From assembly GCA_000002445.1 (NCBI GenBank), contig CH464491.1:3936001-4000000 (forward strand): a stretch of 64,000 bases of DNA. Reading direction: 5' to 3'. Of the stretch, positions 1-35,160 are shown one piece after another. This stretch comes from Trypanosoma brucei. Its lineage: Eukaryota. The notes beneath the pieces are model-generated. The model ran no database searches and was not told the origin of the DNA. It saw only the letters and a program-made list of their open reading frames with translations. The position numbers were made by a program, and so were the translations under genes. Each line of letters begins with the position of its first letter. Within the stretch, counting starts at the first letter, position 1.

Positions 1-1172
1 TGCGTACTGCCGGTCGTGATCCGACATGCAGGTTAGATTTAGGACCTTTGCCACAAACTGCCTTGACTGGCAATCACCTACACGCTCTGTCCCATTTACT
101 GCCAAACTTTCAGCACCAATTCTTCCCCTTCGCTTAGCCACTGGAGCTACCGGATTGTTCTCGACGATAAATGCCTCCCCAAAGGCACCTCTTCCCGCCA
201 TCTTTTTCTTTATGTATAAAGCTGTAGAGCTACCGGGTTCTCCCAAAATATCCTCAAGCGAAAGCCGCTCAGGGTCAAATTTATTGTTGTATCCATCGGT
301 TTTAATTACTGGAATGGGAGGCGAATTACTCCTCTGCGCATCCGATCGCGTGTCGGAGGCGGTGGTGTGAGAACTTGACGACGCGGTCTTTGGAGTTGGT
401 AATTCCGTTGGTGCTCTCGTAGCTACTCTCACAACACCGTTTCCCATTAAATAACAACGAGAGGACGCCTTCACAGTATGTAATAGGACGACAAGTTGAT
501 GTGCGGCTTTAAAAAAAAAAAAACGTTACAGCTTTCGCCTTGATCTTAGATTTTTTCCTTTTGGTTTCTTTTATGAAATAGGATAAAAGGGGGAGAGAAA
601 ATCCAATGTCAATAACTCCAGTAAAAACAAAGTCGGGAAGCTGACGATGTGCTACAAAGCAACACTCACATACCAGGTTTTGTAAAAAGAAAAACACAAG
701 AAACAAAACTATAATCCTAGTAGTAAGAAAGGGCCACAGAAGAGTGTTACCACAAAAGACCGAGGGCACACGCTGCTCGAGGCAGGGAGAAAAAAAAAAG
801 AAAAAATGTAAGTGCCCCCCCAAGGCGCTGCCTCACAGAAACGAAAAGAGAGAAACCAATACGTAAAAAACAGTCCAGTGGGAAGAATACGCCCCACTGA
901 CACCTTTCTTCATTTTACTGGAGAACCAAGAGGAATTATGTAAAGGATCTGCACGATATGTATCGCACTTCCATACCATTTCCTCCCACCCAACCGGTAA
1001 CACGTTTAGTACCCGCCATCGAAAAGTAGAATTCATAGGAGTACCAAGAATTACGGCTCCGTTAGTAAGAACCACACAGTCATAACATCAATAATCAAAA
1101 ATTCAACACCAGATAAGAATAAACACACTACTCTTCACGTCATTTTAAGAAACACAACTGCACAACGCCATC

Positions 1173-1799
1173 TTACAAGTCACTATGCGGTGCCCCAGGG
1201 TTACGTTTCCTTGTAAATTGATTTTCCGCATGATCCCAGTTTACCACGTTCCAAAATGTTTGCACGTAAGCCGGACGGTCATTCTTGTAATCAATATAGT
1301 AAGCATGCTCCCAAACATCGCAGGCGAGAATCGGCTTGAGATCCGCTTCAGTCAGTGGGCAACCGGCGTCATGCGTTTGAAATACTTTCAGTTTTTTTGT
1401 GGTGGTGTCCTGCACAAGCCACGCCCAACCAGAGCCGAAGTGGCCCACCGCCGCATTAGTGAACTCCTCCTTGAATTTTGCGAAGCTGCCGAATGATGCC
1501 CTGATGGCCTCTGCGAGTTTACCACTTGGTTCCCCACCGCCGTTGGGAGACATGCTCTCCCAGTAGAAGTTATGGTTAAATATCTGCGCCGCAAGGTTGA
1601 AGATGGGGCCTTTTTCTGTTCGGATGATTTCCTCAACGCTCTTCGCAGCAAGCGCTGGATTAGATTTCGCGGCCGCATTCAATTTCGTCACATAACCCAT
1701 GTGATGCTTGTCGTAGTGAAACGTCACCTGTTCCTTCGATATACCCTTTGCGGCTAATCCATCGTACCCCCACGGAAGTGGTGGAATGCTGAAAGCCAT
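1173..1799 (-). CDS. SODB: Iron superoxide dismutase (Fe-SOD, SodB type)
   Basis: 208-aa ORF with a verified ATG start (cat at 1797-1799 on +). Fe/Mn-SOD signatures are visible in the translation: HYDKHH, FNNAAQxxNHxFYW, and the DVWEHAYY metal-binding motif. It ends ...PHSDL. Confidence 0.9.
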   Translation of the reverse strand: MAFSIPPLPWGYDGLAAKGISKEQVTFHYDKHHMGYVTKLNAAAKSNPALAAKSVEEIIRTEKGPIFNLAAQIFNHNFYWESMSPNGGGEPSGKLAEAIRASFGSFAKFKEEFTNAAVGHFGSGWAWLVQDTTTKKLKVFQTHDAGCPLTEADLKPILACDVWEHAYYIDYKNDRPAYVQTFWNVVNWDHAENQFTRKRNPGAPHSDL

Positions 1800-3446
1800 C
1801 GGTGTTACTTATGTTGAAAGTACCGAAAAATATAGAATAATAAGGGAAATTATTTTCTTTTCCTACTATTGGTTTCCCTTCTTATTGCTCTACAGTTCCT
1901 TTTTCTTTTTTTTAAAAAGATCAGTTTATGGTCTCTACTTATGAGTCCAGTTATACAAGAGTTCAAGGAGATGAACAGTAACGCATTTGGTACGATTTGA
2001 ATTAAGAACAATAGTTCAGCAGCCGACACGGAGGAAGTTAAGCAAACAGGGCGTGCAACAAAAATATATATGATTCCAGCAACTCGTCGAGTATAATCTT
2101 CAGATTACAGAAAAAAAGTGAAAAGTGAAAAGAAGCAAAATGAGAGCTTAGAGGGACGCGACAGCTCCCAACAAATATAAAAATGATTTCTGCTCCTTCG
2201 TTTAATCACTTAATCTTTCTCTCCACCCCGCTCTCATTTACCCTCCTTGCCCCCTCATATCACGCGGCATAACCACCTGTCGCAAGTGCTCACTTAAGTG
2301 ATTCATGCGGGTTTCTCATCCTTCCTTCTGCTTTCCTTTTATTGTTTTCTCATCTCAATCCATTACGACCATACGATTCTTTTTCCTCCCTCAGCACATC
2401 GCAACCTTCTATAACGATTCGTTTCTCACTCTTATTTCCCCTAAATAACACCAAGAGGATTACAAAAGCATGCACGAAACAAACATAAACACAAAAATCG
2501 TCAGTTAGTCATGCATGCGCAATAAGGCACGATGAGGTGCCGTAATATAAAAGGACATGTGATCGAATCAATGAAAACGATTGAATCTAGAGAATGGAGG
2601 AGAGATGAAACGAAAAAGGAACATCCACATTGTAAACACAAAACATACAAACAAATGAAACAGGAAGTAACAGAAAAAAACAACAATAAAACGAAAAAAA
2701 ACAAACGAACAAACCACTTTCGCATATTCCTCAATTCAATCAAAACATACAAAAAACACAAAAAACTAGGTAACATTACTTCCTTCCTTTCCCATCTCTT
2801 CTACCGACGCAGCGCGCTTCCATTACCTCATATAAAGTGTTTGGAACGCATAAGAGAAAAGAGTGGGAACTAACGCCCGCAATCTGATTGAGTAAAACAA
2901 AAAAAATGAAGCAATGAAGCAAACGAAAAGAACAAAAGAAAACATTTTCAGAGGCCCGCAAGTATGAAAGAAAAACAAACAAACAGAAGTCAAATGCGGT
3001 CACCTTCGTCGCTTATGCTTCACTAAGCACCTTTTAAGCGTAAAAGAAAAGGTATGAGAAAACAAAGTCAGCAGTGCGAAAAGAAAACAAGAAACCGGAT
3101 TCACAACAAACGTTACGAACAACCAAAACTCAACACGAACTCAGAAGCAGACAAAATTCTTCTTTTTTCACCTTACAAAAGCCACCGTTAAATATAGAGG
3201 GCAGCAAAAGGAGAGAAGGAGAATTCCGAAAATGGGGCAGAAATCGAAGAACAAAAAAAATCTTCTCTTTTCTAAAAAAAAACCAAAGAAAGGGGACAAG
3301 AACAAAACATGTGGAGCAGGAGGCGATCAATAAATAGACGGAGACGGAGGAACAAAGCACAGTATTGACGACAAAATTTAGTGCACTGTCATCTTTAACT
3401 GGCGACCAAAACACTACTTATAAAAGTATTACCTTCACCTTCTTGT

Positions 3447-4046
3447 TTATTCTTTGATGAAGCCAAGTACCTGCGACATGAGGTCGTCCTTTTTGGGGCT
3501 CTTCTTGTACTTTACAGCCTCCGAAATGGCCGACTCGAGGAGCTGCACCACATTGGTTCCATCAGCTGCCGATACGTAAAACAGCGAAAGGTTATGCTTC
3601 TCCACGAACGCGAACGCCTTGTTCACGACGGATGGATCTGTATCTATCTTATTACAGGCTACAATGCATGGAATGTGCTCACGGTAGTTTCGTAACTCAC
3701 CCAACCACTTCTCCAAATTCTTATACGTCGCCTTCCGGGTGACGTCGAAAACCAAAATGCACGCATGAGCCTCGTGGTAATACGCGGGATGCATAGTGGA
3801 GAAACGCTCCTGTCCCGCCGTGTCCCAAATGTCAACATCAATTGCCTCATCATCTTCAGTAACGAAGTCATAGTGGAATAGCGTCAATGCATATGTGGAC
3901 ATTTGCACAGGCACGTATCGTTGCATCAAAAACCGCTCTACCAACTTAGACTTCCCCACAGCACTGTCACCAAGAAGGATAACTTTCACAGGTTTCCGTT
4001 CGTCATCGGGTTTATTGTCAATTAGTTTCTTCACTTTTAAGGACAT
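3447..4046 (-). CDS. Rab-like small GTPase without C-terminal prenylation cysteines (possible RABL/IFT-type GTPase)
   Basis: P-loop GDSAVGKS, switch [13 protein letters not shown] (G4) and SAA (G5). There is no C-terminal CC/CXC, and it ends GFIKE. Start moved to the internal ATG at 4046 (MSLKVKK). The upstream part of the listed ORF runs through a poly-T/poly-A tract and is likely UTR. Confidence 0.7.
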   Translation of the reverse strand: MSLKVKKLIDNKPDDERKPVKVILLGDSAVGKSKLVERFLMQRYVPVQMSTYALTLFHYDFVTEDDEAIDVDIWDTAGQERFSTMHPAYYHEAHACILVFDVTRKATYKNLEKWLGELRNYREHIPCIVACNKIDTDPSVVNKAFAFVEKHNLSLFYVSAADGTNVVQLLESAISEAVKYKKSPKKDDLMSQVLGFIKE

Positions 4047-4919
4047 TACAAAAAAAAAAAATGGACAAGTACGCAAGCGAAGAATGAGCTAAACCTATGA
4101 CGAGAAGAAAAGGGAGGAATAAAAAAAGAGTAAGGAATTTCATTTGGCATGCAAGTGCAGCCGGTTGTCAGTTTGGCAAAGCTTGGTGGAAGTGCACAGT
4201 TACTTCCCTTCTCCCCCTGCGCTTAGCACACCCTCCTCCAAGTAAAAGCTTCGTTCTATTCCCAACGTAAGAACACTGGGTAACCCTATCGCTCAATTCA
4301 TTTAATACCGTTATAATCATTACTATTACGAAATTGAAAAATGATTGCGGTACGAGAGATGCAACCCACAACGGGTCTTGTGGGAAAATGAATAAAATAC
4401 GATGTGAAGACGCGGTTAAACCATCAAAGTCAGCGAGAAAAGGGGGGGGCAACATTCATTTAAACAATGAGATTTCAAGCCATAGCTCTCCGTTCCTTTT
4501 GTCCTCGCCCACCCCACAGGTATAACATCAAGAATGTGCTAAATTGACGGGGGAAACATTTCCCATACACACCTTTATAACAACAACATACACGGGCTCC
4601 ACTGCATTACAAGCCAAGACGTCGCGAACAGAAACTAACCGTACTACACGGTACACAGTTACCAACAAGAAACGTACTTGAGGTGCGGATGCGCGCAGTA
4701 CATGCACGAAGCAACGTGGTGAGGTAATTGTGGAGTCTTTTTGCCCACACATGCAAAGACACCTGCTCAGCGTAACTCAGCTTCACTCACGCAGTGAATT
4801 TCGCATAGCATCTCGAGGTTATCCCTCCCCTAATCGGCCACTACATGACAGAACATCACAAATCATGGAAAGTAGGAAAGAAGTCACTTTCATCACCATC
4901 TCGTTCCCTTGTCAACTTT

Positions 4920-6704
4920 CTAAATACCCTTCATTTGAAACTTCATCGGAGGTGCCAGAGCTGGGAGGGGCGCCTGCGACTCGTTCACACGTTTCCGCAT
5001 GGTGTTCAGCCCCTCACGCTTTTCCTTGTCTTCCAACCCCCTGTCTTCAATGCGGCTTTCCTTCGCGAGCACATCCTTTTCCACAACTGCAGCCTCCGTC
5101 GTAATCATCATTCCAGCCACTGAACACGCATTTACTACCGCTGATTTTACAACTTTCATTGGATCAATTATACCCTCGTTAAACATGTTCACGTACTCGC
5201 CTGTCTGCGCATTGTATCCGAACGTTGGGTCATTCCTTCTCATAATTTTACTCGCCACAACACTTCCTTCCACACCCGCATTACTCGCAATGTAACGACA
5301 GGGCAAGCGGACAGCCCTTTTCACTATATTAACGCCCGTGCGGATATCTGGAGGCAAACTGCGGTCCTTCGCCACGCTGTCAAGCCGCACTGATGCAACG
5401 AGCAAAGCTGTACCACCGCCAGCAAGAATTCCCTCCGCTACCGCTGCACGCGTGGCGTTAAGGGCATCAACAATACGATCTTTTTTCTCACTGATCTCAA
5501 CTTCGGAGGCACCGCCAACTTTAATTACTGCAACACCTCCAGACAACTTAGCAAGCCGCTCTACCAAGCGCTCGCGGTTGTACTCGTGATCTTCCGCTGC
5601 AATCATATCACGGATCATCTGAACGCGCTCTTCCACCGCGATGGCACTTCCACCACCCTCCATTAAAATGCATTCATCACGCGATATTGTAGCTTTCTTA
5701 CATGATCCAAGCAACCGCTCCGAAAAATCACTTTGGTCGAGACTTAACCCCAAATCCTCTGAAATCATCTGCGCACCGGTGAATACTGCAATATCCTGTA
5801 GTTGATTAATTCGCATATCACCGAACCCAGGAGCTTTCACTGAGCAGCCTGTTATTCTTCCTTGAATTTTGTTATAGAGGAATGTATGCATTGCTTCTCC
5901 CTCCAAATCCTCGGAAATAACAAGGAGTGGTCTCTTCTTTTGGATGGCATGGTTCAGTGCGGGAAGAATGTGGGCAACACTGGACAACTTACGGTTTGCA
6001 ACAAACACTAGTGCATTCTCCAATTCGCACTTCTGTGACTTGGTGTTCGTTACAAAATATGGTGATGTGAATCCCCGCTCGAAGGACATTCCCTCCACGA
6101 GTTCCAACTCCGTGTTCAACGAGCGGCCCTCCTGCGTAGTGATGACACCATCCTTACCAACCTGCTGCATGGCATCACCAATGAGCGCTCCAATTTCAAC
6201 GTCCATATTAGCCGATATCATTGCTATCTGCGTTACCTCCGATTTGGAGGTGACGGGCTTCGCCTGCTCAGCCAATGAAGCGAGTACCTCGCGGCAGGCC
6301 AAGTCAATCCCACGTTTCAAGTCCATTGGATTCGTACCCGTAGAAACACTACGGAACCCTTCTCGAAATATAGCTCCAGAGAGAATTGTTGCAGTGGTCG
6401 TTCCGTCACCAGCTGTATCATTTGTGAGGCCAGCCACCTGCCGCACGAGGTTGGCACCCAGATTTTCAAAGCTGTTCTCAAACTCAATGTGCTTCGCTAC
6501 TGTCACGCCATCCTTTGTTATCTTCGGACTAGCATATGGCATCTCCAATACGACATTACGTCCTTTCGGCCCCAATGTAACACCGACCGCCTTCACAAGA
6601 TTCTCCACACCAAGCAAAAGTAGCTTACGGGCCTCGATGCCGTAACGAATGTCCTTCGGCGTCGAGCCGTACTGCATGCAACAAGCGAAGGAGCGCCTCA
6701 GCAT
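4920..6704 (-). CDS. HSP60: Chaperonin HSP60/GroEL family, mitochondrial, divergent paralog
   Basis: 594 aa, ATG verified. It has GDGTTTATIL (ATP site), AVIKVGG and AEGILAGGG motifs and an N-terminal presequence-like MLRRSFA. There is no C-terminal GGM repeat, and the N- and C-termini are unusual. Looks like a divergent copy rather than the canonical HSP60. Confidence 0.88.
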   Translation of the reverse strand: MLRRSFACCMQYGSTPKDIRYGIEARKLLLLGVENLVKAVGVTLGPKGRNVVLEMPYASPKITKDGVTVAKHIEFENSFENLGANLVRQVAGLTNDTAGDGTTTATILSGAIFREGFRSVSTGTNPMDLKRGIDLACREVLASLAEQAKPVTSKSEVTQIAMISANMDVEIGALIGDAMQQVGKDGVITTQEGRSLNTELELVEGMSFERGFTSPYFVTNTKSQKCELENALVFVANRKLSSVAHILPALNHAIQKKRPLLVISEDLEGEAMHTFLYNKIQGRITGCSVKAPGFGDMRINQLQDIAVFTGAQMISEDLGLSLDQSDFSERLLGSCKKATISRDECILMEGGGSAIAVEERVQMIRDMIAAEDHEYNRERLVERLAKLSGGVAVIKVGGASEVEISEKKDRIVDALNATRAAVAEGILAGGGTALLVASVRLDSVAKDRSLPPDIRTGVNIVKRAVRLPCRYIASNAGVEGSVVASKIMRRNDPTFGYNAQTGEYVNMFNEGIIDPMKVVKSAVVNACSVAGMMITTEAAVVEKDVLAKESRIEDRGLEDKEKREGLNTMRKRVNESQAPLPALAPPMKFQMKGI

Positions 6705-7367
6705 GACGTCTCACAGATCCTGTCTTCTAAACTGTTATTTCTGCACTCTTTTCGATTTCACAGATTCTAGGTCATCAACGAGATAGCCAGAAGGAGAAAA
6801 AGATAATATGGGTATGCATATCCAAGCGCCATGCAAGAGAGCACATGTAAATGTACATTTTCCCCTATGCCTTCCTGACGCACCAATCCCTTACACATTT
6901 CTCTTCAGAAATGTAGACTGTGCATCAACATTGGGTAAAGTTCTCCTTTCAGCACCTCACAATGATCCACGTAATCTGAACGCACGAAGTGCATGACGGA
7001 AAGGGAAAGAAAAAGAAATGCCTCAAAACATCACGTCGCACTGTCCACAAAAAGGGACAACAGAGACAATTTCCCGCTGCAGCACGTTTTCCTCACGAAC
7101 CAAATTTGACATAAAGCGCTATAGTTCTTGTGGTGGTGTGTTTTTCGGTGGGAAGCTGAAAAGGGACTGACCGCACGAACGCATGACGGCATGCGTCGTC
7201 TGGCGCTTTTACCGCTCACATCTAAACAAGCACCCGTCGATACCTTCCTGCCATCACACATAAATTAAGGGGGAAAATGAAGGTTGCACTGAGGTTGGAT
7301 CAATCGCTCACACGCTCCCTCACGCACGGAACTCCAAGAGACACCGCTGGTGATAATCAGCCAGCCA

Positions 7368-8798
7368 CTAAACTGCGGTGACGGAACCCCTCGTACCTCC
7401 AAGTAACGTACTGACGTTAGCGTGCACACCGGAATGCCCAGCTATGTTGTTAGTGGCCGGAGGCACGGTATACAAACTAGAAGACAATGCTACATTAGCG
7501 CTTGGTGTTGATTCCGGCTCTTCCGGCGTGACTACAGGTTTGCACCCCTCGGAAGAAAACGCATGGCGCTCGCCACCTCCATGGTGGTGATGATGACCAT
7601 AGTCATGATTGTGTCCATGAGAGTGACCGTGGTCGTGCCCATGAGAGTGGTTATGACACTGATAGCTAGAACTTTCTCCGGGGTCAAAGTTGTCTTCTTC
7701 ATCAGGCTTTCTGACCTCCACAAAAACGTAAGCCGCAACACTTGCAAGTATTTTATGTGCTTCTTGAGTCACCGCCAAGGGGTCTGCCGATGTTAGCAAA
7801 ATCAATTGCACAAGGGCCATAAGCTCCCCTTCACTCACCTCCCAAAAGCAGGACGACTTTATCTGCATTACACCCGGAACCAACTGCACACTACGAATGG
7901 CACGCTCACACTTTGCCGCCACGTTGGGTTGGCACGTTGCGTTGTTAAGCAGAAGCCACGCCATTGATGTGGATTGATTCAAGGTGACAGCCAAAACGTA
8001 GAATGCCAACAACATCACTCCAATAGTTTCCCACATTGAAGACCCGCCAAGTCTCACTAAAAGCGAGACTAAGATGCACGTGAAAGCAGAAAAAGAGCGC
8101 AACACAATGCGAATAATGCGATACTGTTGGGAAAAGGCCCTGGAAAAGAGCAGCAGAGGCCTGCGCAGAACCTGCCGTATCGTAACGTGGATACTGGGGA
8201 GACCACGAGGCTCTCGTTGCGAAGACAGCGTTCCACTGATGCGGTCATGCGCGTCAATTTCTCCCCCAAACACAGTAATAAGCAGGGCATGTACCACTCC
8301 TGTGAGGAGAAGCAATTTAGGTGAGGGCTGTCGCGTGTGTGCTATGTCGTGAACTGATTCTAGCATTACGGTGAGTGATCCAAACAAAACAAATATAGAC
8401 GCACCGAACGAAATGAGCGTGTGAAGACGCTTTGCACCGAAGTAGTACCCCTGAATACCTTCGAGAGAAATCGCCCCGTTTTGCTGGTTACGGTGCTCTT
8501 GGCCGCCAAGTAGTAAACTATGCGGCTGAGGATTCGGCTGCGCCGTAATCTGCTCCTTGACTCGAAAGGAAGGCGCCTGCACAATGCGGCAGTAGTTCAG
8601 TGACACCACCCCTGAAGCAACAGCGGCACATGTGTTAAATGTGATGAAGGCGTTGACCTGAAGAATCCTGCAGCCACTAAACGTACCGATTAGCGTGTCT
8701 ACGACCCATAAAAAGAAGAAAACAGTGGCGACGCACCGCAGTTTGTGCATTTCCAGGTCATCGCCCTTCTTGAACAGACGAACAGCTTCTCCTATCAT
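7368..8798 (-). CDS. Polytopic membrane protein with His-rich C-terminal tail; possible cation-diffusion-facilitator-like metal transporter
   Basis: 476 aa, ATG verified. About 6-7 hydrophobic helices. Motifs ESVHDIAH and VVHALLITVFGGEIDAHD loosely resemble the CDF TM2/TM5 H-x3-D motifs. The tail CHNHSHGHDHGHSHGHNHDYGHHHHHGGGERH suggests metal binding. The family assignment is tentative. Confidence 0.4.
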   Translation of the reverse strand: MIGEAVRLFKKGDDLEMHKLRCVATVFFFLWVVDTLIGTFSGCRILQVNAFITFNTCAAVASGVVSLNYCRIVQAPSFRVKEQITAQPNPQPHSLLLGGQEHRNQQNGAISLEGIQGYYFGAKRLHTLISFGASIFVLFGSLTVMLESVHDIAHTRQPSPKLLLLTGVVHALLITVFGGEIDAHDRISGTLSSQREPRGLPSIHVTIRQVLRRPLLLFSRAFSQQYRIIRIVLRSFSAFTCILVSLLVRLGGSSMWETIGVMLLAFYVLAVTLNQSTSMAWLLLNNATCQPNVAAKCERAIRSVQLVPGVMQIKSSCFWEVSEGELMALVQLILLTSADPLAVTQEAHKILASVAAYVFVEVRKPDEEDNFDPGESSSYQCHNHSHGHDHGHSHGHNHDYGHHHHHGGGERHAFSSEGCKPVVTPEEPESTPSANVALSSSLYTVPPATNNIAGHSGVHANVSTLLGGTRGSVTAV

Positions 8799-9126
8799 AT
8801 TTGCTGCGACTAATCAGAAGTGTGGAAAAGCGAAACAAACAAGAGAAACTTGAACACAAGCGAACCGCGGTAAATCTTTTCACATATATAAAGGAATGCA
8901 TTATTAAGATGCATACGTGGTACACCTTCCCCCTTCCTCTCACTAAGAGGCTCATGAGAAAAGTAGAGAAAAAACGAAATGCACACTCGGTTTGAAAAGC
9001 AACATTTCTTTACCGAGATTGAGAAATGGAATAAATAATAACTGTATGTCTATCTCTATGATGGTTGTTGTTGCAGTTGTGTAGTTCCCGTTCGCAAGCA
9101 TATCCATCAAACTGCAGGGTGTTACT

Positions 9127-9525
9127 TCATCGACCACGCTTCACCTGACCCGTTGGCAGGAGTGGCACCAAATGTCCCATCCCACCAGCCTTCAGTGCGG
9201 TTTTTATGTCATTAGCGGAAAGCGTTACCCTTCGCCTCGACTCACGAGAGTGTTCGTCATCTGCAAGACATGAAAGGTACAGAAGCGATATTGTTGCGGC
9301 CTTCTGCATCGCTATGCGCGCGTCGCGAGCAACATGCATACCAGCGGGCACAGCGGCAGCAACGATGCGGTCCACTTGCCCGGCCGCCAAACTACGAGCT
9401 TTTACAGCGGAGTTTTGTGCAGTTGGAGAGGGAAGAGGAGCCGCATCAATATCTGCTATGGTGCCTTGAGTGTCGCTCGCCTTCACTAAGTCACCAGCTA
9501 AATCCATTCGTCCTTGTCCTTTCAT
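9127..9525 (-). CDS. Histone-fold protein (NF-YB/NC2-beta/Pol-epsilon small subunit-like)
   Basis: The listed ORF begins at a GTG (cac at 9595-9597), so I use the first in-frame ATG at 9525 (MKGQGRMDL...). The histone-fold pattern is visible: VDRIVAAAVPAGMHVARDARIAMQKAATISLLYLSCLADDEHSRESRRRVTLSANDIKTALKAGGMGHL. Confidence 0.5.
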   Translation of the reverse strand: MKGQGRMDLAGDLVKASDTQGTIADIDAAPLPSPTAQNSAVKARSLAAGQVDRIVAAAVPAGMHVARDARIAMQKAATISLLYLSCLADDEHSRESRRRVTLSANDIKTALKAGGMGHLVPLLPTGQVKRGR

Positions 9526-9734
9526 GAGTCCATGTAAAGCCGCAGTTGTAGAAAGAAGGAGGGCATATGAACTCGAAACATCATCAACAAAACGCACACA
9601 AGCGAATACGACAAAACAATGGCAAAGAGCAATTCAAAGATACGTACGCAAACATGGTGCTGCAACCGTACGAACAAAAAGTAAAGTAGTCACGAACAAG
9701 GTTTGATTAATGAAGGGAAGAAACAAGAAAGATT

Positions 9735-9830
9735 CAAGACTTCAGCTAATAACATAGTATAGTTATTCCATCACAAATTTGTCGGATTGAAGGGCTAACT
9801 TCAAGAATAACAATGATAACATCATATCTT
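9735..9830 (-). ncRNA. Candidate C/D box snoRNA (copy 1 of a tandem pair)
   Basis: The minus strand reads AUGAUGU (C-like box), then a conserved core, GUGAUGG (C'-like), a divergent ~20-nt segment, and CUGA (D box) about 80 nt downstream. It is related to the copy at 10052-10152. Intergenic location. No structure or target prediction was done. Confidence 0.3.
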
Positions 9831-10147
9831 ACTTGACAAAGTACATGGAGTATCATCTCCGCTACCTCTATCACACGGTGCAGCTACGCGGCAAGCACAC
9901 CCTGTTTACACAGGCACGTTGAACAGGGGCCAAGAGGGAGTGTTGGGCCACCGACAGAATGTAGGGGAAACAGTAGAATAAACGCAATAGCAGAGCTGGT
10001 CGAGAGGGTGAAGTATGTGAGCAAACCAGTTTCAAATACTTAAAGAAAGATACGGAAAGAATCTCAGAATCAAATATAAACGGTTATTCCATCACGAAAC
10101 TCTCGGATTGAAGGGCTAACTTCAAAAGATCACTAATATCATCACAC
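9763..10147. repeat. Intergenic tandem duplication (~320-bp period, two degenerate units sharing a ~60-bp conserved core)
   Basis: ttattccatcacaaatttgtcggattgaagggctaacttcaagaataacaatgataacatcat (9763-9825) compared with ttattccatcacgaaactctcggattgaagggctaacttcaaaagatcactaatatcatcac (10083-10145). Partial similarity continues downstream (atcacacggtgcagc / atcacacggcaccgc). Confidence 0.7.
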
Positions 10148-10152
10148 GGCAC
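10052..10152 (-). ncRNA. Candidate C/D box snoRNA (copy 2 of a tandem pair)
   Basis: The minus strand reads GUGAUGA (perfect C box, RUGAUGA), then ...UUGAAGUUAGCCCUUCAAUCCGAGA..., CGUGAUGG (C'-like), AAUAACCGUUUAUAUUUGAUU and CUGA (D box). The C-to-D distance is ~83 nt. It sits in an intergenic tandem duplication, which is how trypanosome snoRNA clusters are typically arranged. Confidence 0.35.
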
Positions 10153-10571
10153 CGCTTCTCTTTTTGTACACACTGGTAGCCCATTGCAGGGGTGAATCAA
10201 CATGCATCGGGGGAGGGGCTCCTACGGACGGCTATTCAAACATATGCTTTCCTTCCAACTAATAGATGGGAAATCAAAGGGGACCACACACATTTTTTTT
10301 CAAATGCACATACGTTTAGACAATGAAAGGAACGAAAAGTAAACAGGGTCATTCGAAGTAGCTTGCAATAACCAATAATATTTACTAATTGTCGCAACAG
10401 AAAGTGAGGCACGCGCACCATGGAACGAAAATCGAGCCATGTTTACACTACTCTCTATGCCCATCTATGGAAAACTTTTTGTGTGTGTTCTTCGAAAAAT
10501 AAACGAAGGGACCGTTACAATGTGTAAAACACTGACCGAATGAAAAAGGGTGCATGTGTATCTGATAATTA

Positions 10572-13500
10572 TTAAGATTTGTTATCATCTCCTGGACGAA
10601 GCGTCATTGAAAACTTTCGCTTACCCCTAATCAAAGGTATTATTGCACTGGTGTCCTCCACATCTGTACCGTCGATTTGAGTAATCCGCCAACCAACGAC
10701 ACTGTGCGGGTCCAATATGCCAATTTCACGGAGTGCTGCTGAAAACGGTGTGTTGTTCCCAGCAACTGACGCTCCTCCCATTACACCATCATTTTTAAAT
10801 ACGATACGTCGTATTGTCGAACGACTGCCATGCAGCGAAAATCCTAGAGGCGCCTCCGCATCATTCCGCATCAACGTCAAGTGAAACACCCTCTCGGCAG
10901 GTGCTTTGTGGTCGGCTGTGCCCTCACCATCGGAGGGTTCCGCTCCTATATCCTCGGGACTTGTGTTATCACCAGCTTCCACACTAGCTTCAGCCTCACC
11001 ACGCTCCCGCGCCGCATCCAAAGCGGCCATCCGCTTCCTCTTCTTCACGCTATATATAAGACTGTTACGAACCGCCAAATTTATCGTGGCCTCCAGTCTT
11101 GCTAGTGCGCGCCAATTTGCCTTCTCCTGGTCCGTGGAATTTGCGGGATTCAGCCCCTCCACTTCAGCTAATAAGTTACTGCACTTGCTGTGCAATAAAT
11201 GAGCCATGTCCCGTGACCACTGCCTTCTCATCCTCTTCCTTTCCTCCACAGCAGAGTCATTGAGGGGCATGCCAACCCCTTTTCGACGATCACCGCGGAG
11301 AAGGAAAATCCGGTAATGGCGCAGAACGTTAGTCACAACGTAAAGACGAAGGGATAAGTATCCCAGGGCCCGGGAAAAGTGACGAGGTTTGGCACCATGC
11401 GACCCCACGGAAAACAACGAGGGTGTTTCCGATGCCTCATCCCCCAAAGCCCCTTTAGTGTTGCGAAGCCCCTTCGTCAATTGTCGCTCATGCGATAGTA
11501 TGAAAAATATTTCCTGTAACTGATGCAGAGGCATCCACAAGAAAGAAGGGTGCATAACATGGGCATGGACAACACTCAAAACAGATTGCGCCTGCCGACG
11601 AAGTAGTCTGCCGTCCACTTTCTCTCCATTGTCACATCGCAAGCCGGTAAAGCAATGGAGGACCTTCTTGGCACGCAGATGTCGAAGCTGCTTCGCGGTA
11701 TTGTAATCCAAAGCGAATAACACCTCCCTCACGTACATTGATACGATTGTTGGGCTCACAACGCTGTCCGCAGAAATTCCAGAGGAAGACACAGGACGCA
11801 CGTGGCAACCGTATTGCAAAAATGACATGAAGAACGCTACCTCGGCAGCCTGCGAAAGCGGTACACCACACACACGTAGTGCCTCCGCAACCTGTCCCGA
11901 TTGTCTGTCATCACCACCACCGCCACTCTCCATCACATCACTCAACTGCTTCAGCAAGAGAAATACCTGCAGGCAACTCACAAGAACCTCACTACCAAGT
12001 GTGTCAAGATAATGCCGCCGCAGTAACGGGAAAAAGGAAGCGGATATATTTTTGAGGAAACAACAAGCAGGATGCTTGGTAAACGCCATCTTCGTCCTTG
12101 GATTACTCGGTGGTGGCCCCTGAAGATCCTGCGAAACGTATGACCTTACATATAGCTCAATGAGCGAGCTCACACCAACGCGGACTGTGGAAGCCGCAAC
12201 CAACACACGTTCCCAAGCAGATTCTGAAGGCGGCTGCGCTTGCGTGGCACCTTCCTTCTTCGTGGAAGGGTCAACCAGAACGATCCAGTTCTTTGCTGTT
12301 TTGCTGCAGGCAAGGAAATACAACTCAATTTCCATCTCCAGCAAGGTGCGGCACAACACGGCGCTGGAGTTCACCGCAGGAATTAAATCATAATCCCTGG
12401 CTTCGTTCCTCGTTGCCCACACCGCAGCCACACGGTTCAATAATTCAAGAACGAGGAATGCGCTATCTGGTTTTGACGATAAAAACTGCAGAAACTTATT
12501 GTCCGCATGCAACCCCTCCCTGCAACGCAGGTATCTCAGGTTCAAAGTTGAATGTACCGTCCGGTGTGTCATTAGTGAATCACTGGTTCGTCGCTCTAGC
12601 GGTGGTGCTATTTTGGCCCAAAGTTGCCGTAGGGTTGTGATGCAACGGCTCTCCAGTTGAAATGTGGCTCCTGGGGGAAACGACGTAAACGAAAACAGTA
12701 CACAAAGCATCATTGAGTAGAAAGCGTTAACACTCCCCGATAGATCTTTACACGCTGCCCCTCGTGTCGTCTCCAGTGTCCCGAGTGTTCGCTCAGCCAG
12801 CAATAACACACTGTGAAGTAGAGATGGTTGTGCCGAACCACCGGTGCCGCGTACTCCCTTTGAAACTGTTTCTTCCAACAATGCACTGGCGTCAGTCAGC
12901 AGACGCGATGAGCAACTCATAATGCTATGATCTAATGACGTTAAAGTTTCATCTTCCGCCCCGGCCACCTTCAGACAATTGGACAAATGCCATCGCAGTT
13001 CGACCGTCGCGGAGAGTCCAGAAGAAATTATTGCAGCGGAGCTCAAGCATTCAGTACACACGTCACTTGCATTCTCATTGTCACCCGTATTTTTATCCCC
13101 CACCGTGTTAGAAAAGTGATGATGCACTTCGGTGAGAGAGGCAAAGCATTCTGCATATGCTTTAAGAACCTTGCACCGCCACGCAAGGAGATGACCGACA
13201 TCTTCAGACTCCTTACCTGCAGAACGAGCTTTGAAACGTTTATTACACTCACGACGGAAGCCATTTAGTGACTGCTGAAGCGCACGCCCCAGAAGAGTGA
13301 GCACGGCGTGTTGCACACGGACTTCGGGAAGGTCATCAACCTTTTCAATGCGCGTATGTTTTTCCACCTGCAAGCCAAGACGATTAATGAGTTCATGCAG
13401 TGTGTCATCCTCCTCAGATATGGCGGGTACATCCCTCTCTCCACCACCGGGAACCTCAACAACTACCCCTTTGTGCGCCGCAGCCAACTGTTTTAGTACC

Positions 13501-13802
13501 TGGGAGAACATTTCTTCTTTCATACAAATCTCTGCAACACGGGACATTTGCTTTCGTCCGTGTTCCCTTTGCCTGGAAGATTCGATCGGTTTCTCGCCGG
13601 TAGTAATATCGTGCAAAAGATTATCCATGTTATCACTTTCAAAACCCAGTGAGTGAATTAATCGATCCTTGGTGAGTTTTTCATCGTCGCCCTCGTCATC
13701 GGTGTAATCTCTTCTGATGATCCGACTCCCGTGGATGTTTCGAGTCTGAATGGGTGCCAGCAACCGCAAAGGGAGGAAAAGCCCACTTAAGGCTCTTCTC
13801 AT
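10572..13802 (-). CDS. Large conserved hypothetical protein with mitochondrial-presequence-like N-terminus and C-terminal PDZ-like domain
   Basis: The listed ORF starts at TTG, so I use the ATG at 13802 (MRRALSGLFLPLRLLAPIQTRNIHGSRIIRR, an amphipathic basic N-terminus). The C-terminus LGFSLHGSRS...GVMGGASVAGNNTPFSAALREIGILDPHSVVGWRITQIDGTDV resembles a PDZ fold. ~1076 aa. Confidence 0.7.
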   Translation of the reverse strand: MRRALSGLFLPLRLLAPIQTRNIHGSRIIRRDYTDDEGDDEKLTKDRLIHSLGFESDNMDNLLHDITTGEKPIESSRQREHGRKQMSRVAEICMKEEMFSQVLKQLAAAHKGVVVEVPGGGERDVPAISEEDDTLHELINRLGLQVEKHTRIEKVDDLPEVRVQHAVLTLLGRALQQSLNGFRRECNKRFKARSAGKESEDVGHLLAWRCKVLKAYAECFASLTEVHHHFSNTVGDKNTGDNENASDVCTECLSSAAIISSGLSATVELRWHLSNCLKVAGAEDETLTSLDHSIMSCSSRLLTDASALLEETVSKGVRGTGGSAQPSLLHSVLLLAERTLGTLETTRGAACKDLSGSVNAFYSMMLCVLFSFTSFPPGATFQLESRCITTLRQLWAKIAPPLERRTSDSLMTHRTVHSTLNLRYLRCREGLHADNKFLQFLSSKPDSAFLVLELLNRVAAVWATRNEARDYDLIPAVNSSAVLCRTLLEMEIELYFLACSKTAKNWIVLVDPSTKKEGATQAQPPSESAWERVLVAASTVRVGVSSLIELYVRSYVSQDLQGPPPSNPRTKMAFTKHPACCFLKNISASFFPLLRRHYLDTLGSEVLVSCLQVFLLLKQLSDVMESGGGGDDRQSGQVAEALRVCGVPLSQAAEVAFFMSFLQYGCHVRPVSSSGISADSVVSPTIVSMYVREVLFALDYNTAKQLRHLRAKKVLHCFTGLRCDNGEKVDGRLLRRQAQSVLSVVHAHVMHPSFLWMPLHQLQEIFFILSHERQLTKGLRNTKGALGDEASETPSLFSVGSHGAKPRHFSRALGYLSLRLYVVTNVLRHYRIFLLRGDRRKGVGMPLNDSAVEERKRMRRQWSRDMAHLLHSKCSNLLAEVEGLNPANSTDQEKANWRALARLEATINLAVRNSLIYSVKKRKRMAALDAARERGEAEASVEAGDNTSPEDIGAEPSDGEGTADHKAPAERVFHLTLMRNDAEAPLGFSLHGSRSTIRRIVFKNDGVMGGASVAGNNTPFSAALREIGILDPHSVVGWRITQIDGTDVEDTSAIIPLIRGKRKFSMTLRPGDDNKS

Positions 13803-14345
13803 CCCCAATAATCAAGTTACCGGAAAAGAAAAAAAAAACTGTCTTGGGAATCAGGTTAAGAACAGAAAACGCGAAGACTGAGATTTCATCCACGGGGAGC
13901 AAGTACAATAAATAAAACCACGCACGGCTCTCTCATGTTGTTAAAAAATAAGGGGAGTGACAGTAGTCTTGCTAACATTTTTTTTTTTAGAAGGGACGAC
14001 GAAAATACCCCCGACAGGAATCACCCGCAGACCCTTCATGAGCTGTACTACGTGCCATCAACCCAGTAAACACCGCTGAGCCATTTGCGTAACCGAGAAA
14101 AATAATAGCAATAATAACGAGAATAAAAGTATTAATAGAAACGCTAATCGTCCCCGTACGGGCTTCAACATATCACATATGGTCCCATACCCATTGAATT
14201 ATATTTCCTTCAGTGCCATATTCAAAGTATCAACCCCCCCCTCTCTCTATTTCTTTCTTACATTAAATATCCCTTTCAATTTCTTTTATTTTCGTCGTCC
14301 TCTGTTTTTATCCTTCGCTACCGTTGCTACGCCCCGATTCGAAAC

Positions 14346-17715: not shown

Positions 17716-20700
17716 TTACGCATCACCCTCACCAGTTGGTTGTTCGGTGGCATCTTCAGCCTGTTCTCCTGGTTGTTCAGTGGCATCTTCAGCTTGTTCA
17801 GCTGGTTGTTCAGTGGCATCTTCAACACCTTCAGCAGCAACTTGTTCGCCAGCATCTTCACTTGCAGGCTTCTTTGGAGAAGACCCAGTTGATGCCTCCT
17901 TGGGAATATCAGCCTCATCAAGTTCTTCATGCTCATCTGTTTGCTCAGCTGCAGTTTCTTGAGCAACCTCCTCGGCTGGTTGTTCAGTGGCATCTTCAGC
18001 TTGTTCAGCTGGTTGTTCAGTGGCATCTTCAACACCTTCAGCAGCAACTTGTTCGCCAGCATCTTCACTTGCAGGCTTCTTTGGAGAAGACCCAGTTGAT
18101 GCCTCTTTGGGAATATCAGCCTCATCAAGTTCTTCATGCTCATCTGTTTGCTCAGCTGCAGTTTCTTGAGCAACCTCCTCGGCTGGTTGTTCAGTGGCAT
18201 CCTCAGCCTGTTCAGCTGGTTGTTCAGTGGTATCTTCAGCTTGTTCTCCTGGTTGTTCGGTGGCATCTTCCGCCTCCTCAGCTGGTTGTTCAGTGGTATC
18301 TTCAGCTTGTTCAGTTGGTTGTTCAGTGGTATCTTCCGCCTCCTCAGCTGGTTGTTCAGTGGTATCTTCAGCTTGTTCAGCTGGTTGTTCAGTGGTATCT
18401 TCAACACCTTCAGCAGCAACTTGTTCGCCAGCATCTTCACTTGCAGGCTTCTTTGGAGAAGACCCAGTTGATGCCTCTTTGGGAATATCAGCCTCATCAA
18501 GTTCTTCATGCTCATCTGGTTGTTCAGTGGCATCCTCAGCCTGTTCAGCTGGTTGTTCAGTGGCATCTTCAGCTTGTTCAGTTGGTTGTTCAGTGGTATC
18601 TTCCGCCTCCTCAGCTGGTTGTTCAGTGGTATCTTCAGCTTGTTCAGCTGGTTGTTCAGTGGTATCTTCAGCTTGTTCTCCTGGTTGTTCAGTGGTATCT
18701 TCAGCCTGTTCAGCTGATTGTTCAGTGGCATCTTCAGCCTGTTCAGCTGGTTGTTCAGTGGCATCTTCAACACCTTCAGCAGCAACTTGTTCGCCGGCAT
18801 CTTCACTTGCAGGCTTCTTTGGAGAAGACCCAGTTGATGCCTCTTTGGGAATATCAGCCTCATCAAGTTCTTCATGCTCATCTGGTTGTTCAGTGGCATC
18901 CTCAGCCTGTTCAGCTGGTTGTTCAGTGGCATCTTCAGCTTGTTCAGTTGGTTGTTCAGTGGTATCTTCCGCCTCCTCAGCTGGTTGTTCAGTGGTATCT
19001 TCAGCTTGTTCAGCTGGTTGTTCAGTGGTATCTTCAGCTTGTTCTCCTGGTTGTTCAGTGGTATCTTCAGCCTGTTCAGCTGATTGTTCAGTGGCATCTT
19101 CAGCCTGTTCAGCTGGTTGTTCAGTGGCATCTTCAACACCTTCAGCAGCAACTTGTTCGCCGGCATCTTCACTTGCAGGCTTCTTTGGAGAAGACCCAGT
19201 TGATGCCTCCTTGGGAATATCAGCCTCATCAAGTTCTTCATGCTCATCTGTTTGCTCAGCTGCAGTTTCCTGAGCAACCTCCTCAGCTGGTTGTTCAGTG
19301 GTATCTTCAGCCTGTTCAGCTGATTGTTCAGTGGCATCTTCAACACCTTCAGCAGCAACTTGTTCGCCGGCATCTTCACTTGCAGGCTTCTTTGGAGAAG
19401 ACCCAGTTGATGCCTCTTTGGGAATATCAGCCTCATCAAGTTCTTCATGCTCAGCTGGTTGTTCAGTGGCATCCTCAGCCTGTTCAGCTGATTGTTCAGT
19501 GGCATCTTCAACACCTTCAGCAGCAACTTGTTCGCCAGCATCTTCACTTGCAGGCTTCTTTGGAGAAGACCCAGTTGATGCCTCTTTGGGAATATCAGCC
19601 TCATCAAGTTCTTCATGCTCATCTGTTTGCTCAGCTGCAGTTTCCTGAGCAACCTCCTCAGCTGGTTGTTCAGTGGCATCTTCAGCCTGTTCAGCTGGTT
19701 GTTCAGTGGCATCTTCAACACCTTCAGCAGCAACTTGTTCGCCGGCATCTTCACTTGCAGGCTTCTTTGGAGAAGACCCAGTTGATGCCTCCTTGGGAAT
19801 ATCAGCCTCATCAAGTTCTTCATGCTCAGCTGGTTGTTCAGTGGCATCCTCAGCCTGTTCAGCTGATTGTTCAGTGGCATCTTCAACACCTTCAGCAGCA
19901 ACTTGTTCGCCAGCATCTTCACTTGCAGGCTTCTTTGGAGAAGACCCAGTTGATGCCTCTTTGGGAATATCAGCCTCATCAAGTTCTTCATGCTCATCTG
20001 TTTGCTCAGCTGCAGTTTCCTGAGCAACCTCCTCAGCTGGTTGTTCAGTGGCATCTTCAGCCTGTTCAGCTGGTTGTTCAGTGGCATCTTCAACACCTTC
20101 AGCAGCAACTTGTTCGCCGGCATCTTCACTTGCAGGCTTCTTTGGAGAAGACCCAGTTGATGCCTCCTTGGGAATATCAGCCTCATCAAGCTCCTCATGC
20201 TCTTCAACCTCCTGTCTAGGTGTCACCGATCGTGACGACTCAGCCGACGACTCATGAACAGGCGGGTACTTGTTGGCCTCTCTTGCTTTAGCCTCCGCAG
20301 CCTCCCTTATCTTCTCTGGTAAGCACGTCAACATGCGCATCAGTGGAGTGCAGCTGGTTCCATGCCACGCTATCGTCGCGGTAAGCTTACCATATGGTCC
20401 ATATGATTCTCGTGTACACTCGAGAGTCTTCTCCCAAAGCTCCTTTTGCTCTTCCTCCTCAATGAAATACCGTTCTGCTGTCTCGCACCGACTCGTTGAA
20501 TACAACCGTACGCCGTACATATCAAACAACCAGCGGAGCATACATTTCCATTCCTCCAGCTCCTCCGCCTCAACGACAGCACGGGAGTCTAGGTGCTCTT
20601 CCTCGAAAGTTTTTTCTTTAACAGGGCCTTTGGTACGTTCAACGCACTGACGGCGGAAGAACTCAGGTGGAGCGTAGCGAAAGACGCCACGTCGGATGAC

Positions 20701-35118: not shown

Positions 35119-35160
35119 TATATATATATATATATACATACATACATACATACATACACA
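35119..35160. repeat. Compound microsatellite (TA)n followed by (CATA)n
   Basis: atatatatatatatatatac atacatacatacatacatac, inside the long gene-free interval. Confidence 0.9.

What the first reader, a model, noticed from the sequence alone, without database searches (positions are those of the whole stretch)
9730..10160. Intergenic tandem duplication carrying C/C'/D box-like motifs: candidate C/D snoRNA gene pair
Two ~320-bp-spaced units share a conserved core (GAAGUUAGCCCUUCAAUCCGA on the minus strand). Each is flanked upstream by RUGAUGA-like boxes (GUGAUGA in copy 2, AUGAUGU in copy 1) and has CUGA about 80 nt downstream. An internal GUGAUGG C'-like box is also present. The ~20 nt just upstream of the D box differs between copies, as expected for paralogous guides with different targets. 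Trypanosome snoRNAs are typically organised as tandemly reiterated intergenic clusters within polycistronic units, so the context fits. If real, these would guide 2'-O-methylation on rRNA or snRNA.
Basis: partly seen in the sequence, partly recalled or inferred. Interest (0 to 1): 0.55.

Follow-up and report, generated by a model that had tools for sequence, protein, structure and literature searches.

The report
Known trypanosome snoRNA gene cluster
The repeat is two gene copies of a Trypanosoma brucei box C/D snoRNA, with an H/ACA-like snoRNA gene between them, that guide two already mapped ribosomal RNA modifications; it is real but ordinary and almost certainly the published cluster TB11Cs4'.

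Summary
Two about 85-nt units lie 321 bp apart on the minus strand. They share an exact 21-nt core and carry C, D', C' and D boxes.

The window is T. brucei chromosome 11, and all neighbouring genes are on the same strand. The core is conserved at the syntenic site in T. grayi and T. vivax.

The 12 nt next to the D' box are perfectly complementary to large-subunit rRNA (UUGAAGGGCUAA). The +5 rule places the methylation on LSU-beta A646. A646 is a mapped, NOP1-dependent Am that the literature assigns to snoRNA TB11Cs4'C1.

Its pocket fits exactly one site in a full rDNA unit. That site is LSU-beta U1074, the published pseudouridine target of TB11Cs4'H1.

One sub-claim is not: the divergent segments upstream of the D boxes show no consistent rRNA target and are not conserved. 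The two units are best read as copies of one guide, not paralogues with different targets.

Identity with TB11Cs4' rests on chromosome, cluster composition and both targets. The rRNA used was a proxy from metagenomes, not T. brucei itself. Novelty: already known. Interest: low.

The parts
10060..10150 (-). C/D snoRNA gene, copy 2 (upstream in the direction of transcription). Ends are approximate.
   Evidence: Boxes were read, and the alignment with orthologues is. The weak Rfam C/D-like hit at 10059-10138 (snoR117, 17 bits against a gathering score of 42, E 1.9) shows only a generic C/D shape.
10139..10145 (-). Copy 2 C box, GUGAUGA
   Evidence: AUGAUGA occupies the aligned position in T. grayi and T. 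vivax.
10107..10123 (-). Copy 2 conserved 17-nt segment GAAGUUAGCCCUUCAAU. Positions -2 to -13 from D' form the guide.
   Evidence: It has an exact 12-bp Watson-Crick complement, UUGAAGGGCUAA, in LSU rRNA of contigs L081 and L084. None of 300 shuffled guides reached 12 bp.
10103..10106 (-). Copy 2 D' box, CCGA (degenerate CUGA)
   Evidence: It is CCGA in T. grayi and CGGA in T. vivax.
10089..10095 (-). Copy 2 C' box, GUGAUGG
10064..10067 (-). Copy 2 D box, CUGA
   Evidence: CUGA is conserved in all full-length orthologues.
9853..9922 (-). H/ACA-like (AGA-box, single-hairpin) snoRNA gene between the two C/D copies. Ends are approximate.
   Evidence: It is conserved in T. grayi and T. vivax. The hairpin is predicted in all three species. 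The RNAalifold consensus has 22 pairs, 5 of them with compensatory changes.
9906..9911 (-). H/ACA 5' pocket strand, GUGUAA
   Evidence: It is invariant in the three species. It pairs with UUACAC, which lies 3' of U1074-G1075 in LSU rRNA.
9868..9872 (-). H/ACA 3' pocket strand, GAUAG
   Evidence: GAUA pairs with UAUC, which lies 5' of U1074. The first G is 14 nt upstream of the AGA box.
9856..9858 (-). AGA box
   Evidence: AGA is conserved at the aligned position in T. brucei, T. grayi and T. vivax.
9738..9830 (-). C/D snoRNA gene, copy 1 (downstream). Ends are approximate.
   Evidence: A possible 4-bp terminal stem, AAGA/UCUU, flanks the C and D boxes (read from the sequence).
9819..9825 (-). 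Copy 1 C box, AUGAUGU (6 of 7 to RUGAUGA)
9786..9802 (-). Copy 1 conserved 17-nt guide segment, identical to that of copy 2
9782..9785 (-). Copy 1 D' box, CCGA
9768..9774 (-). Copy 1 C' box, GUGAUGG
9742..9745 (-). Copy 1 D box, CUGA

Best explanation
The locus is a small mixed snoRNA cluster on T. brucei chromosome 11. Its order in the direction of transcription is C/D copy 2, then an H/ACA-like RNA, then C/D copy 1. It sits in the intergenic region of a minus-strand polycistronic unit, upstream of an NF-Y-like histone-fold gene.

By inference from established trypanosomatid biology, the RNAs are cut out of the Pol II polycistronic precursor and assembled into snoRNPs.

Both C/D copies carry the same guide next to the D' box. 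It pairs over 12 bp with LSU-beta rRNA positions 643-654 (UUGAAGGGCUAA). This sequence lies in domain V, just 5' of the GAAAGAAGACCC stretch at the entrance of the peptide tunnel. Fibrillarin/NOP1 then methylates the ribose of A646, the nucleotide paired to guide position 5 from D'.

The H/ACA-like RNA holds LSU-beta U1074 at the top of its pocket. It pairs with UAUC on the 5' side and with UUACAC after one spacer nucleotide on the 3' side. U1074 lies 14 nt from the AGA box, so CBF5 converts it to pseudouridine.

The cluster is almost certainly the published TB11Cs4' (TB11Cs4'C1 plus TB11Cs4'H1).

Shown here: the anatomy, the conservation, the complementarity, and the coincidence with mapped modification sites. 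Inferred: processing, snoRNP assembly, and that both C/D copies are expressed.
For: Organism and context:
- The flanking protein is 99% identical to a T. b. gambiense protein.
- That gene lies on record FN554974.1, a 4.53-Mb chromosome; the assignment of this accession to chromosome 11 is from my own knowledge, not a tool result.
- The intergenic region is about 99% identical to T. b. gambiense.
- All ORFs are on the minus strand.

Conservation:
- The exact 21-nt core sits between the same two genes in T. grayi.
- In T. vivax the core has one mismatch, which lies in D'.
- The boxes and the D' guide are conserved while the spacers vary.

C/D target:
- There is a unique 12-bp Watson-Crick duplex with LSU rRNA in two independent rDNA contigs.
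- None of 300 shuffled guides reached 12 bp.
- I registered the 15 published LSU-beta Nm sites on those contigs without using the guide. One offset gave 15 of 15 matches, and the next best gave 10-11.
- That offset places LSUb_646 on exactly the position-5 adenosine.
- The registration extends to 34 of 34 published modified sites between 377 and 728.

Literature on Am646:
- LSU3_646 is Am, assigned to TB11Cs4'C1, and is visible in cryo-EM structures 8OVA and 8OVE (PMC10662448, Supplementary Data 10).
- Its RiboMeth score falls from 0.67 to 0.15 when NOP1 is silenced (PMC9283944, Table 2).

H/ACA:
- The hairpin is conserved and has compensatory changes.
- A bipartite scan of the whole 8.9-kb rDNA contig gave a single hit.
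- That hit is LSU3_1074 (registration 33 of 34).
- LSU3_1074 is the published pseudouridine target of TB11Cs4'H1.
- TB11Cs4'H1 is expressed at RPKM 463-12299 and was first described by Michaeli et al. 2012.
Against: - The published snoRNA sequences could not be read. Liang 2005, Michaeli 2012 Fig. S4 and Rajan 2020 are not held. Identity with TB11Cs4' therefore rests on chromosome, cluster composition and both targets, not on sequence comparison.
- The rRNA used is not T. brucei rRNA. L081 is a kinetoplastid-like metagenomic contig. L084 is a second metagenomic rDNA unit that carries a group I intron. T. brucei identity at positions 643-654 and 1070-1081 is inferred from perfect registration of the published sites and from the conservation of this core region.
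- No expression data were examined here for the C/D copies individually.
- Copy 1 has an imperfect C box (AUGAUGU), and copy 2 has no obvious terminal stem.
- Only 12 of the 17 conserved guide nucleotides pair with rRNA. The conserved 5' GAAG is unexplained.
- No Rfam family matches.
Confidence: 0.93

Rival explanations
1. These are genuine snoRNA genes, but only one C/D copy is functional. The other is a decaying duplicate. Copy 1 is the likelier candidate because its C box is AUGAUGU.
For: - Copy 1's C box departs from RUGAUGA at the last position.
- The copies have diverged freely outside the C-to-C' part.
- T. vivax carries a clearly degenerate second copy at L002 about 3290-3402.
- T. grayi carries a truncated second H/ACA.
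- Decay of repeat units therefore does occur at this locus.
Against: - Both T. brucei copies keep the 21-nt guide plus D', the C' box and the D box intact.
- Copy 1, not copy 2, has a plausible terminal stem.
- Both copies are retained, nearly unchanged, in T. b. gambiense, although that divergence is too small to be informative.
Confidence: 0.2
2. One reading: the two units are paralogues whose divergent D-box guides direct methylation at two further, different targets.
For: - The 20-24 nt upstream of the D boxes differ between the copies.
- Many trypanosomatid C/D snoRNAs are double guides (established knowledge; for example, several snoRNAs have two or more sites).
Against: - The D-proximal segments are not conserved among T. 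brucei, T. grayi and T. vivax.
- Their best matches to two rDNA units are G-U-rich runs of 9-12 bp at different, non-corresponding places.
- The published modification tables assign only LSU3_646 to TB11Cs4'C1.
- Caveat: trypanosome-specific rRNA expansion segments and non-rRNA targets could not be scanned.
Confidence: 0.08
3. A real snoRNA cluster that targets the same two sites but is distinct from the published TB11Cs4'. That is, a redundant cluster that has not been catalogued.
For: Identity with TB11Cs4' was not checked by sequence or by coordinates.
Against: - The published tables list a single guide for Am646 and a single guide for pseudouridine 1074. Both come from one chromosome-11 cluster with exactly the C1 plus H1 composition seen here.
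- The T. brucei snoRNA repertoire has been surveyed repeatedly by RNA-seq.
Confidence: 0.04
4. A chance box-like motif in a generic intergenic repeat; no RNA gene.
For: There is no Rfam hit at gathering threshold. The boxes are short motifs.
Against: - There are only two copies in 64 kb, with 0 expected by chance.
- The repeat is conserved at the syntenic site across three Trypanosoma lineages, with the conservation concentrated on the boxes and the guide.
- The guide points exactly at a mapped Nm.
- The 72 metagenome matches to the 17-mer are unrelated prokaryotic contexts at about the chance rate.
Confidence: 0.01

Closest known systems
T. brucei snoRNA cluster TB11Cs4' (C/D snoRNA TB11Cs4'C1 and H/ACA-like TB11Cs4'H1; H1 is credited to Michaeli et al. 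2012, NAR)
   Same: - It is on chromosome 11.
- It is made up of one C/D species plus one H/ACA species.
- The predicted C/D target is LSU-beta Am646, and the predicted H/ACA target is LSU-beta pseudouridine 1074. These are the sites published for C1 and H1.
   Different: No difference was found. The published sequences and coordinates could not be compared directly. Whether the published description counts two C1 copies is unknown to me.
Trypanosomatid reiterated mixed snoRNA clusters in general (Liang et al. 2005, RNA 11:619; Michaeli et al. 2012, PMC3273796)
   Same: - It is intergenic and on the same strand as the neighbouring protein genes.
- C/D and single-hairpin AGA-box H/ACA-like genes are interleaved at spacings of about 100-300 bp.
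- The cluster is repeated (for the general description; for this locus).
   Different: In T. brucei the repeat here is imperfect. Only the C/D gene is duplicated and the H/ACA is single. In T. grayi the whole C/D plus H/ACA unit is repeated, but its second H/ACA is truncated.
Rfam RF01423 snoR117 (plant C/D snoRNA)
   Same: The generic C/D layout aligns: C box, internal boxes and D box over 80 nt.
   Different: The score is 17.1 bits against a gathering score of 42, with E = 1.9. There is no guide similarity. It is not a member.

Membership tests
Box C/D methylation-guide snoRNA | C box (RUGAUGA) near the 5' end and D box (CUGA) near the 3' end, about 70-100 nt apart | tested here: met
   Copy 2 has GUGAUGA and CUGA 82 nt apart. 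Copy 1 has AUGAUGU (6 of 7) and CUGA 84 nt apart. Both boxes are conserved in T. grayi and T. vivax.
Box C/D methylation-guide snoRNA | Internal D' and C' boxes | tested here: met
   D' is CCGA (CGGA in T. vivax). C' is GUGAUGG, 7 nt downstream. Both are degenerate, as is usual, and both are positionally conserved.
Box C/D methylation-guide snoRNA | At least 10 nt of complementarity to the target immediately upstream of D or D', with the modified nucleotide opposite position 5 | tested here: met
   There are 12 Watson-Crick bp at positions -2 to -13 from D', and none of 300 shuffles matched this. Position 5 corresponds to LSU-beta A646, a mapped Am. The test used proxy rDNA contigs, not T. brucei rRNA.
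Box C/D methylation-guide snoRNA | Terminal stem bringing the C and D boxes together | tested here: inconclusive
   Copy 1 has a possible 4-bp AAGA/UCUU stem. Copy 2 has none that is obvious (sequence). Many trypanosomatid C/D snoRNAs lack a clear stem (my own knowledge).
Box C/D methylation-guide snoRNA | Stable small RNA bound by fibrillarin/NOP1, NOP56, NOP58 and SNU13 | not testable with these tools
   Only indirect evidence exists. Am646 drops from 0.67 to 0.15 on NOP1 silencing (PMC9283944, Table 2).
Trypanosomatid H/ACA-like (single-hairpin, AGA-box) pseudouridylation guide | A single hairpin of about 65-75 nt with an internal pocket, closed by a lower and an upper stem | tested here: met
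   The same hairpin is predicted in three species. The consensus has 22 pairs, 5 with compensatory changes, while the pocket strands are invariant. The MFE fold z-scores are weak (-1.4 to -2.3), so the support comes from covariation and not from energy.
Trypanosomatid H/ACA-like (single-hairpin, AGA-box) pseudouridylation guide | AGA box 3 nt from the 3' end | tested here: inconclusive
   AGA is conserved just after the lower stem in all three species. The 3' end of the RNA was not determined.
Trypanosomatid H/ACA-like (single-hairpin, AGA-box) pseudouridylation guide | Bipartite complementarity flanking an unpaired U-N, with the target U 14-16 nt from the box | tested here: met
   There are 4 + 6 bp (UAUC | U G | UUACAC). 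This is the only such site in the 8.9-kb rDNA contig. It lies 14 nt from AGA. The site is LSU3_1074, a mapped pseudouridine.
Published cluster TB11Cs4' | Located on T. brucei chromosome 11 | tested here: met
   The syntenic T. b. gambiense locus is on FN554974.1, a 4.53-Mb chromosome record. The assignment of that accession to chromosome 11 is from my own knowledge.
Published cluster TB11Cs4' | Contains a C/D guide for LSU3 Am646 and an H/ACA guide for LSU3 pseudouridine 1074 | tested here: met
Published cluster TB11Cs4' | Sequence or coordinate identity with the published genes | not testable with these tools
   Sequence strings were not found in the library text or in the held supplements. 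Liang 2005 and Rajan 2020 are not held.

The most novel reading that the evidence does not exclude
The most novel reading my evidence leaves open has two parts.

First, the two C/D copies may be diverging functionally. Their unconserved D-proximal segments might have acquired copy-specific, non-rRNA or trypanosome-specific targets.

Second, the four conserved guide nucleotides that cannot pair with rRNA (5' GAAG) may have a role of their own. They can pair with CUUC inside the guide (GAAG-UUAGCC-CUUC). This could form an intramolecular clamp, or an accessory contact, that modulates access to A646. A646 is only about 67% methylated in procyclic forms.
Probability: 0.06. Interest if true: 0.35.

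Novelty: already known. Interest (0 to 1): 0.08.

Why it matters
It matters little beyond correct annotation. The result confirms that a reader working from sequence alone picked out a genuine snoRNA locus. It also corrects which segment is the guide.

The modifications concerned are Am646, next to the tunnel-entrance region of domain V, and pseudouridine 1074. Both are already mapped and assigned in T. brucei.

The only small open points are two. It is not known whether both C/D copies are expressed. It is not known why four guide nucleotides that do not pair with rRNA are conserved.

Tried and rejected
- **Rfam.** There were no hits at gathering threshold in the whole window. Permissive hits to snoR117 and SNORD15 were at chance level.
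- **Literature search for the sequence.** Searches for the core and H/ACA strings in the full-text library and in the supplements of five papers found nothing. The key papers that hold the sequences are not held.
- **Metagenome scan with the full 17-nt target.** It gave 72 matches in unrelated, mostly prokaryotic contexts, roughly what I estimate chance would give. One set lay in what looks like a bacterial RNase P RNA (recognised by eye, not tested). None was in rRNA. This is explained afterwards: only 12 of the 17 nt pair with rRNA.
- **Leishmania and Leptomonas.** The loci around the NF-Y-like gene (L006, L007) and an unidentified trypanosomatid contig (L004) have a different upstream neighbour. 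They hold no copy of the core or of the H/ACA, even allowing 5 mismatches. The cluster is not at this position outside Trypanosoma.
- **Getting rRNA.** A bait made from six-frame translations of a remembered trypanosome SSU sequence retrieved real rDNA contigs. T. brucei rRNA itself was therefore never examined.
- **D-box guides.** No consistent target was found.
- **A second H/ACA copy upstream of copy 2.** There is none. An apparent similarity in the first pairwise alignment was not significant.
- **A hairpin in the core.** I considered that the core's self-complementarity (UUGAAG...CUUCAA) marks a hairpin element and not a guide. I rejected this as the main reading. The outer pairs are not conserved in T. 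grayi or T. vivax, and the segment matches rRNA exactly.

Full report
**1.
The repeat finder reports a 43-nt direct repeat, 91% identical, at 9762-9804 and 10083-10125, with 321-bp spacing.

Reading the minus strand gives the same order of elements in both units.
- Copy 2: C box GUGAUGA at 10139-10145, the 17-nt conserved segment at 10107-10123, D' CCGA at 10103-10106, C' GUGAUGG at 10089-10095, and D CUGA at 10064-10067.
- Copy 1: C box AUGAUGU at 9819-9825, the conserved segment at 9786-9802, D' at 9782-9785, C' at 9768-9774, and D at 9742-9745.

From the C box to the D box is 82 nt in copy 2 and 84 nt in copy 1. The stretch between C' and D differs between the copies.

**2. Context.**
All sizeable ORFs from 4.9 to 13.8 kb are on the minus strand:
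- a chaperonin HSP60-type gene (4920-6704);
- a histidine-rich membrane protein (7368-8798) whose orthologue carries a weak cation-efflux domain;
- a small histone-fold NF-Y-like gene (9127-9597);
- a 1078-aa gene (10572-13808).

The small protein is 99% identical to a T. brucei gambiense protein. That gene lies on FN554974.1, a 4.53-Mb chromosome record. I take this record to be chromosome 11 from my own knowledge of the accession series. The intergenic region is about 99% identical between the window and T. b. gambiense.

The two units therefore lie, in sense orientation, in the 975-bp spacer between two genes of a polycistronic unit. This is the usual home of trypanosomatid snoRNA genes (general description in PMC3273796).

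**3. Comparative evidence.**
The same two flanking genes are adjacent in T. grayi (L001) and T. vivax (L002). The core is present in the homologous spacer of both:
- T. grayi has it exactly. It appears three times, but one occurrence straddles an assembly gap, so two is the safe count.
- T. vivax has it with a single change, inside D'.

In the alignment of the units, the conserved columns are the C box, the 17-nt segment with D', the C' box and the D box. The spacers and the segment upstream of D differ freely. This is the pattern expected of a C/D snoRNA whose only constrained guide is the D' guide.

T. vivax also carries a decayed second copy. In Leishmania mexicana, Leptomonas pyrrhocoris and an unidentified trypanosomatid contig, the upstream neighbour is a different gene and the elements are absent.

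**4.
Between the C/D copies there is a second block conserved in all three species. It folds into the same single hairpin in each. The RNAalifold consensus has 22 pairs, five of which are kept through changes on both sides. The two strands of the internal loop, GUGUAA (9906-9911) and GAUAG (9868-9872), are invariant. An AGA follows the lower stem at 9856-9858.

This is the anatomy of a trypanosomatid H/ACA-like RNA of about 70 nt (9853-9922). The folding energy alone is unremarkable (z -1.4 to -2.3), so the case rests on covariation and on the target match in section 6. T. brucei has no second copy of this gene upstream of C/D copy 2.

**5. The rRNA test for the C/D guide.**
No trypanosome rRNA is in the window. 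A metagenome scan for the perfect 17-nt target gave only chance-like matches in prokaryotic contexts.

I then baited the protein index with six-frame translations of a remembered trypanosome SSU sequence. The memory served only as bait. This retrieved two real rDNA contigs:
- L081 has a 2.1-kb SSU that looks kinetoplastid-like, plus most of the LSU.
- L084 is a complete unit with a group I intron, so it is not a trypanosomatid (Rfam).

In both contigs the guide finds one 12-bp Watson-Crick duplex with LSU rRNA, at UUGAAGGGCUAA. The context is GGGAACGGAC-UUGAAGGGCUAA-GCGGGGAAAGAAGACCCUGUUGAG, in domain V. None of 300 shuffled guides reached 12 bp. The duplex spans guide positions -2 to -13 from D'. 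Position 5 therefore faces the first A of UUG[A]AGGG.

**6. Link to mapped modifications.**
PMC9283944, Table 2, lists T. brucei Nm sites with their nucleotides. I slid the 15 LSU-beta sites between 520 and 728 along each contig, without reference to the guide. One offset gave 15 of 15 matches, and the next best gave 10-11. At that offset, LSUb_646 is exactly the predicted adenosine. With all 34 published Nm and pseudouridine sites between 377 and 728, the match is 34 of 34 on both contigs.

The published data for that site are as follows.
- Supplementary Data 10 of PMC10662448 lists LSU3_646 as Am, guided by TB11Cs4'C1 and visible in the cryo-EM maps. It also lists LSU3_1074 as a pseudouridine guided by TB11Cs4'H1.
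- Am646 falls from 0.67 to 0.15 on NOP1 silencing.

I registered the 3' part of LSU-beta on L084 in the same way (33 of 34). I then scanned the whole contig for a U flanked by sequences able to pair with the two pocket strands. The scan gave a single hit, UAUC-U-G-UUACAC, and it is LSU3_1074. The pocket nucleotide that pairs next to the target U is 14 nt from the AGA box, which is the canonical distance.

TB11Cs4'H1 is an expressed small RNA (RPKM 463-12299) first reported by Michaeli et al. 2012.

So two independent guides in this one chromosome-11 spacer point at the two sites published for the two members of one chromosome-11 cluster. I take the locus to be TB11Cs4'.

**7. What is not supported.**
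Three things weigh against this.
- These segments are not conserved between copies or species.
- Their best matches on the two rDNA units are G-U-rich, weak, and at non-corresponding places.
- The published tables give TB11Cs4'C1 a single site.

Trypanosome-specific expansion segments and non-rRNA targets could not be scanned, so the idea is weakened but not excluded.

**8. Caveats.**
- The rRNA was a proxy. T. brucei rRNA itself was never read, and the attempt to fetch it failed.
- The name TB11Cs4' is inferred, not checked by sequence.
- Expression of each C/D copy was not examined.
- Copy 1 has an imperfect C box.
- The 5' GAAG of the conserved segment does not pair with the (universal) GCGG that follows the target. 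Its conservation is unexplained. It can pair with CUUC inside the guide.

**9. Verdict.**
This is a real, correctly spotted snoRNA locus. Two copies of one C/D methylation guide flank an H/ACA-like pseudouridylation guide. The kind of element, the targets and, almost certainly, these very genes are already in the literature. Novelty is nil and interest is low.

Noticed in passing
window 9853-9922 (minus strand): A conserved H/ACA-like (AGA-box) snoRNA gene lies between the two C/D copies. The finding did not mention it. Its pocket fits LSU-beta U1074.
   Followed up: yes
window 9799-9802 and 10120-10123 (minus strand GAAG): The four 5' nucleotides of the conserved 17-nt segment cannot pair with the rRNA that follows the target (GCGG). 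They are nevertheless invariant in T. brucei, T. grayi and T. vivax. They can pair with CUUC inside the guide.
   Followed up: partly
L002 (T. vivax) about 3290-3402: A degenerate second copy of the C/D unit lies upstream of the H/ACA gene. Its C box is GUGGUGA, its guide carries several substitutions, and it has no D box in the aligned stretch. It is probably a pseudogene.
   Followed up: partly
L001 (T. grayi) 3435-3940: The whole C/D plus H/ACA unit is repeated with a period of about 245 bp. An N at 3519 marks a collapsed or gapped repeat in the assembly. The second H/ACA copy diverges after its 5' half, so it is truncated.
   Followed up: partly
window 17733-20202: There is a large nested tandem array: a 33-nt unit (11 codons) inside repeats of 207 and 366-375 nt, up to about 29 copies of the short unit. 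It coincides with a strong AT-skew excursion (-0.35 at 18-20 kb). It is probably a repetitive coding region on the minus strand.
   Followed up: no
window 34001-36000: G+C drops to 0.33, against about 0.45-0.50 elsewhere in the window.
   Followed up: no
window 10489-10601 (minus strand): A weak SNORD15-like match (14.6 bits against a gathering score of 75, E = 2) overlaps the 3' end of the 1078-aa ORF. I treated it as chance.
   Followed up: no
L034, L041 and L052 (metagenome contigs): The 17-mer ATTGAAGGGCTAACTTC occurs by coincidence at the 5' end of what looks like a bacterial RNase P RNA (followed by GAGCAATCGGAGAGGAAAGTCCGGAC). This is unrelated to the finding.
   Followed up: no
L084 4116-4524: The ENA metagenome rDNA unit used as an rRNA proxy carries a group I intron in its LSU gene (Rfam, 92.9 bits). 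It is therefore not from a trypanosomatid, yet its sequence around LSU-beta 500-740 is 237 of 241 identical to the kinetoplastid-like contig L081.
   Followed up: partly
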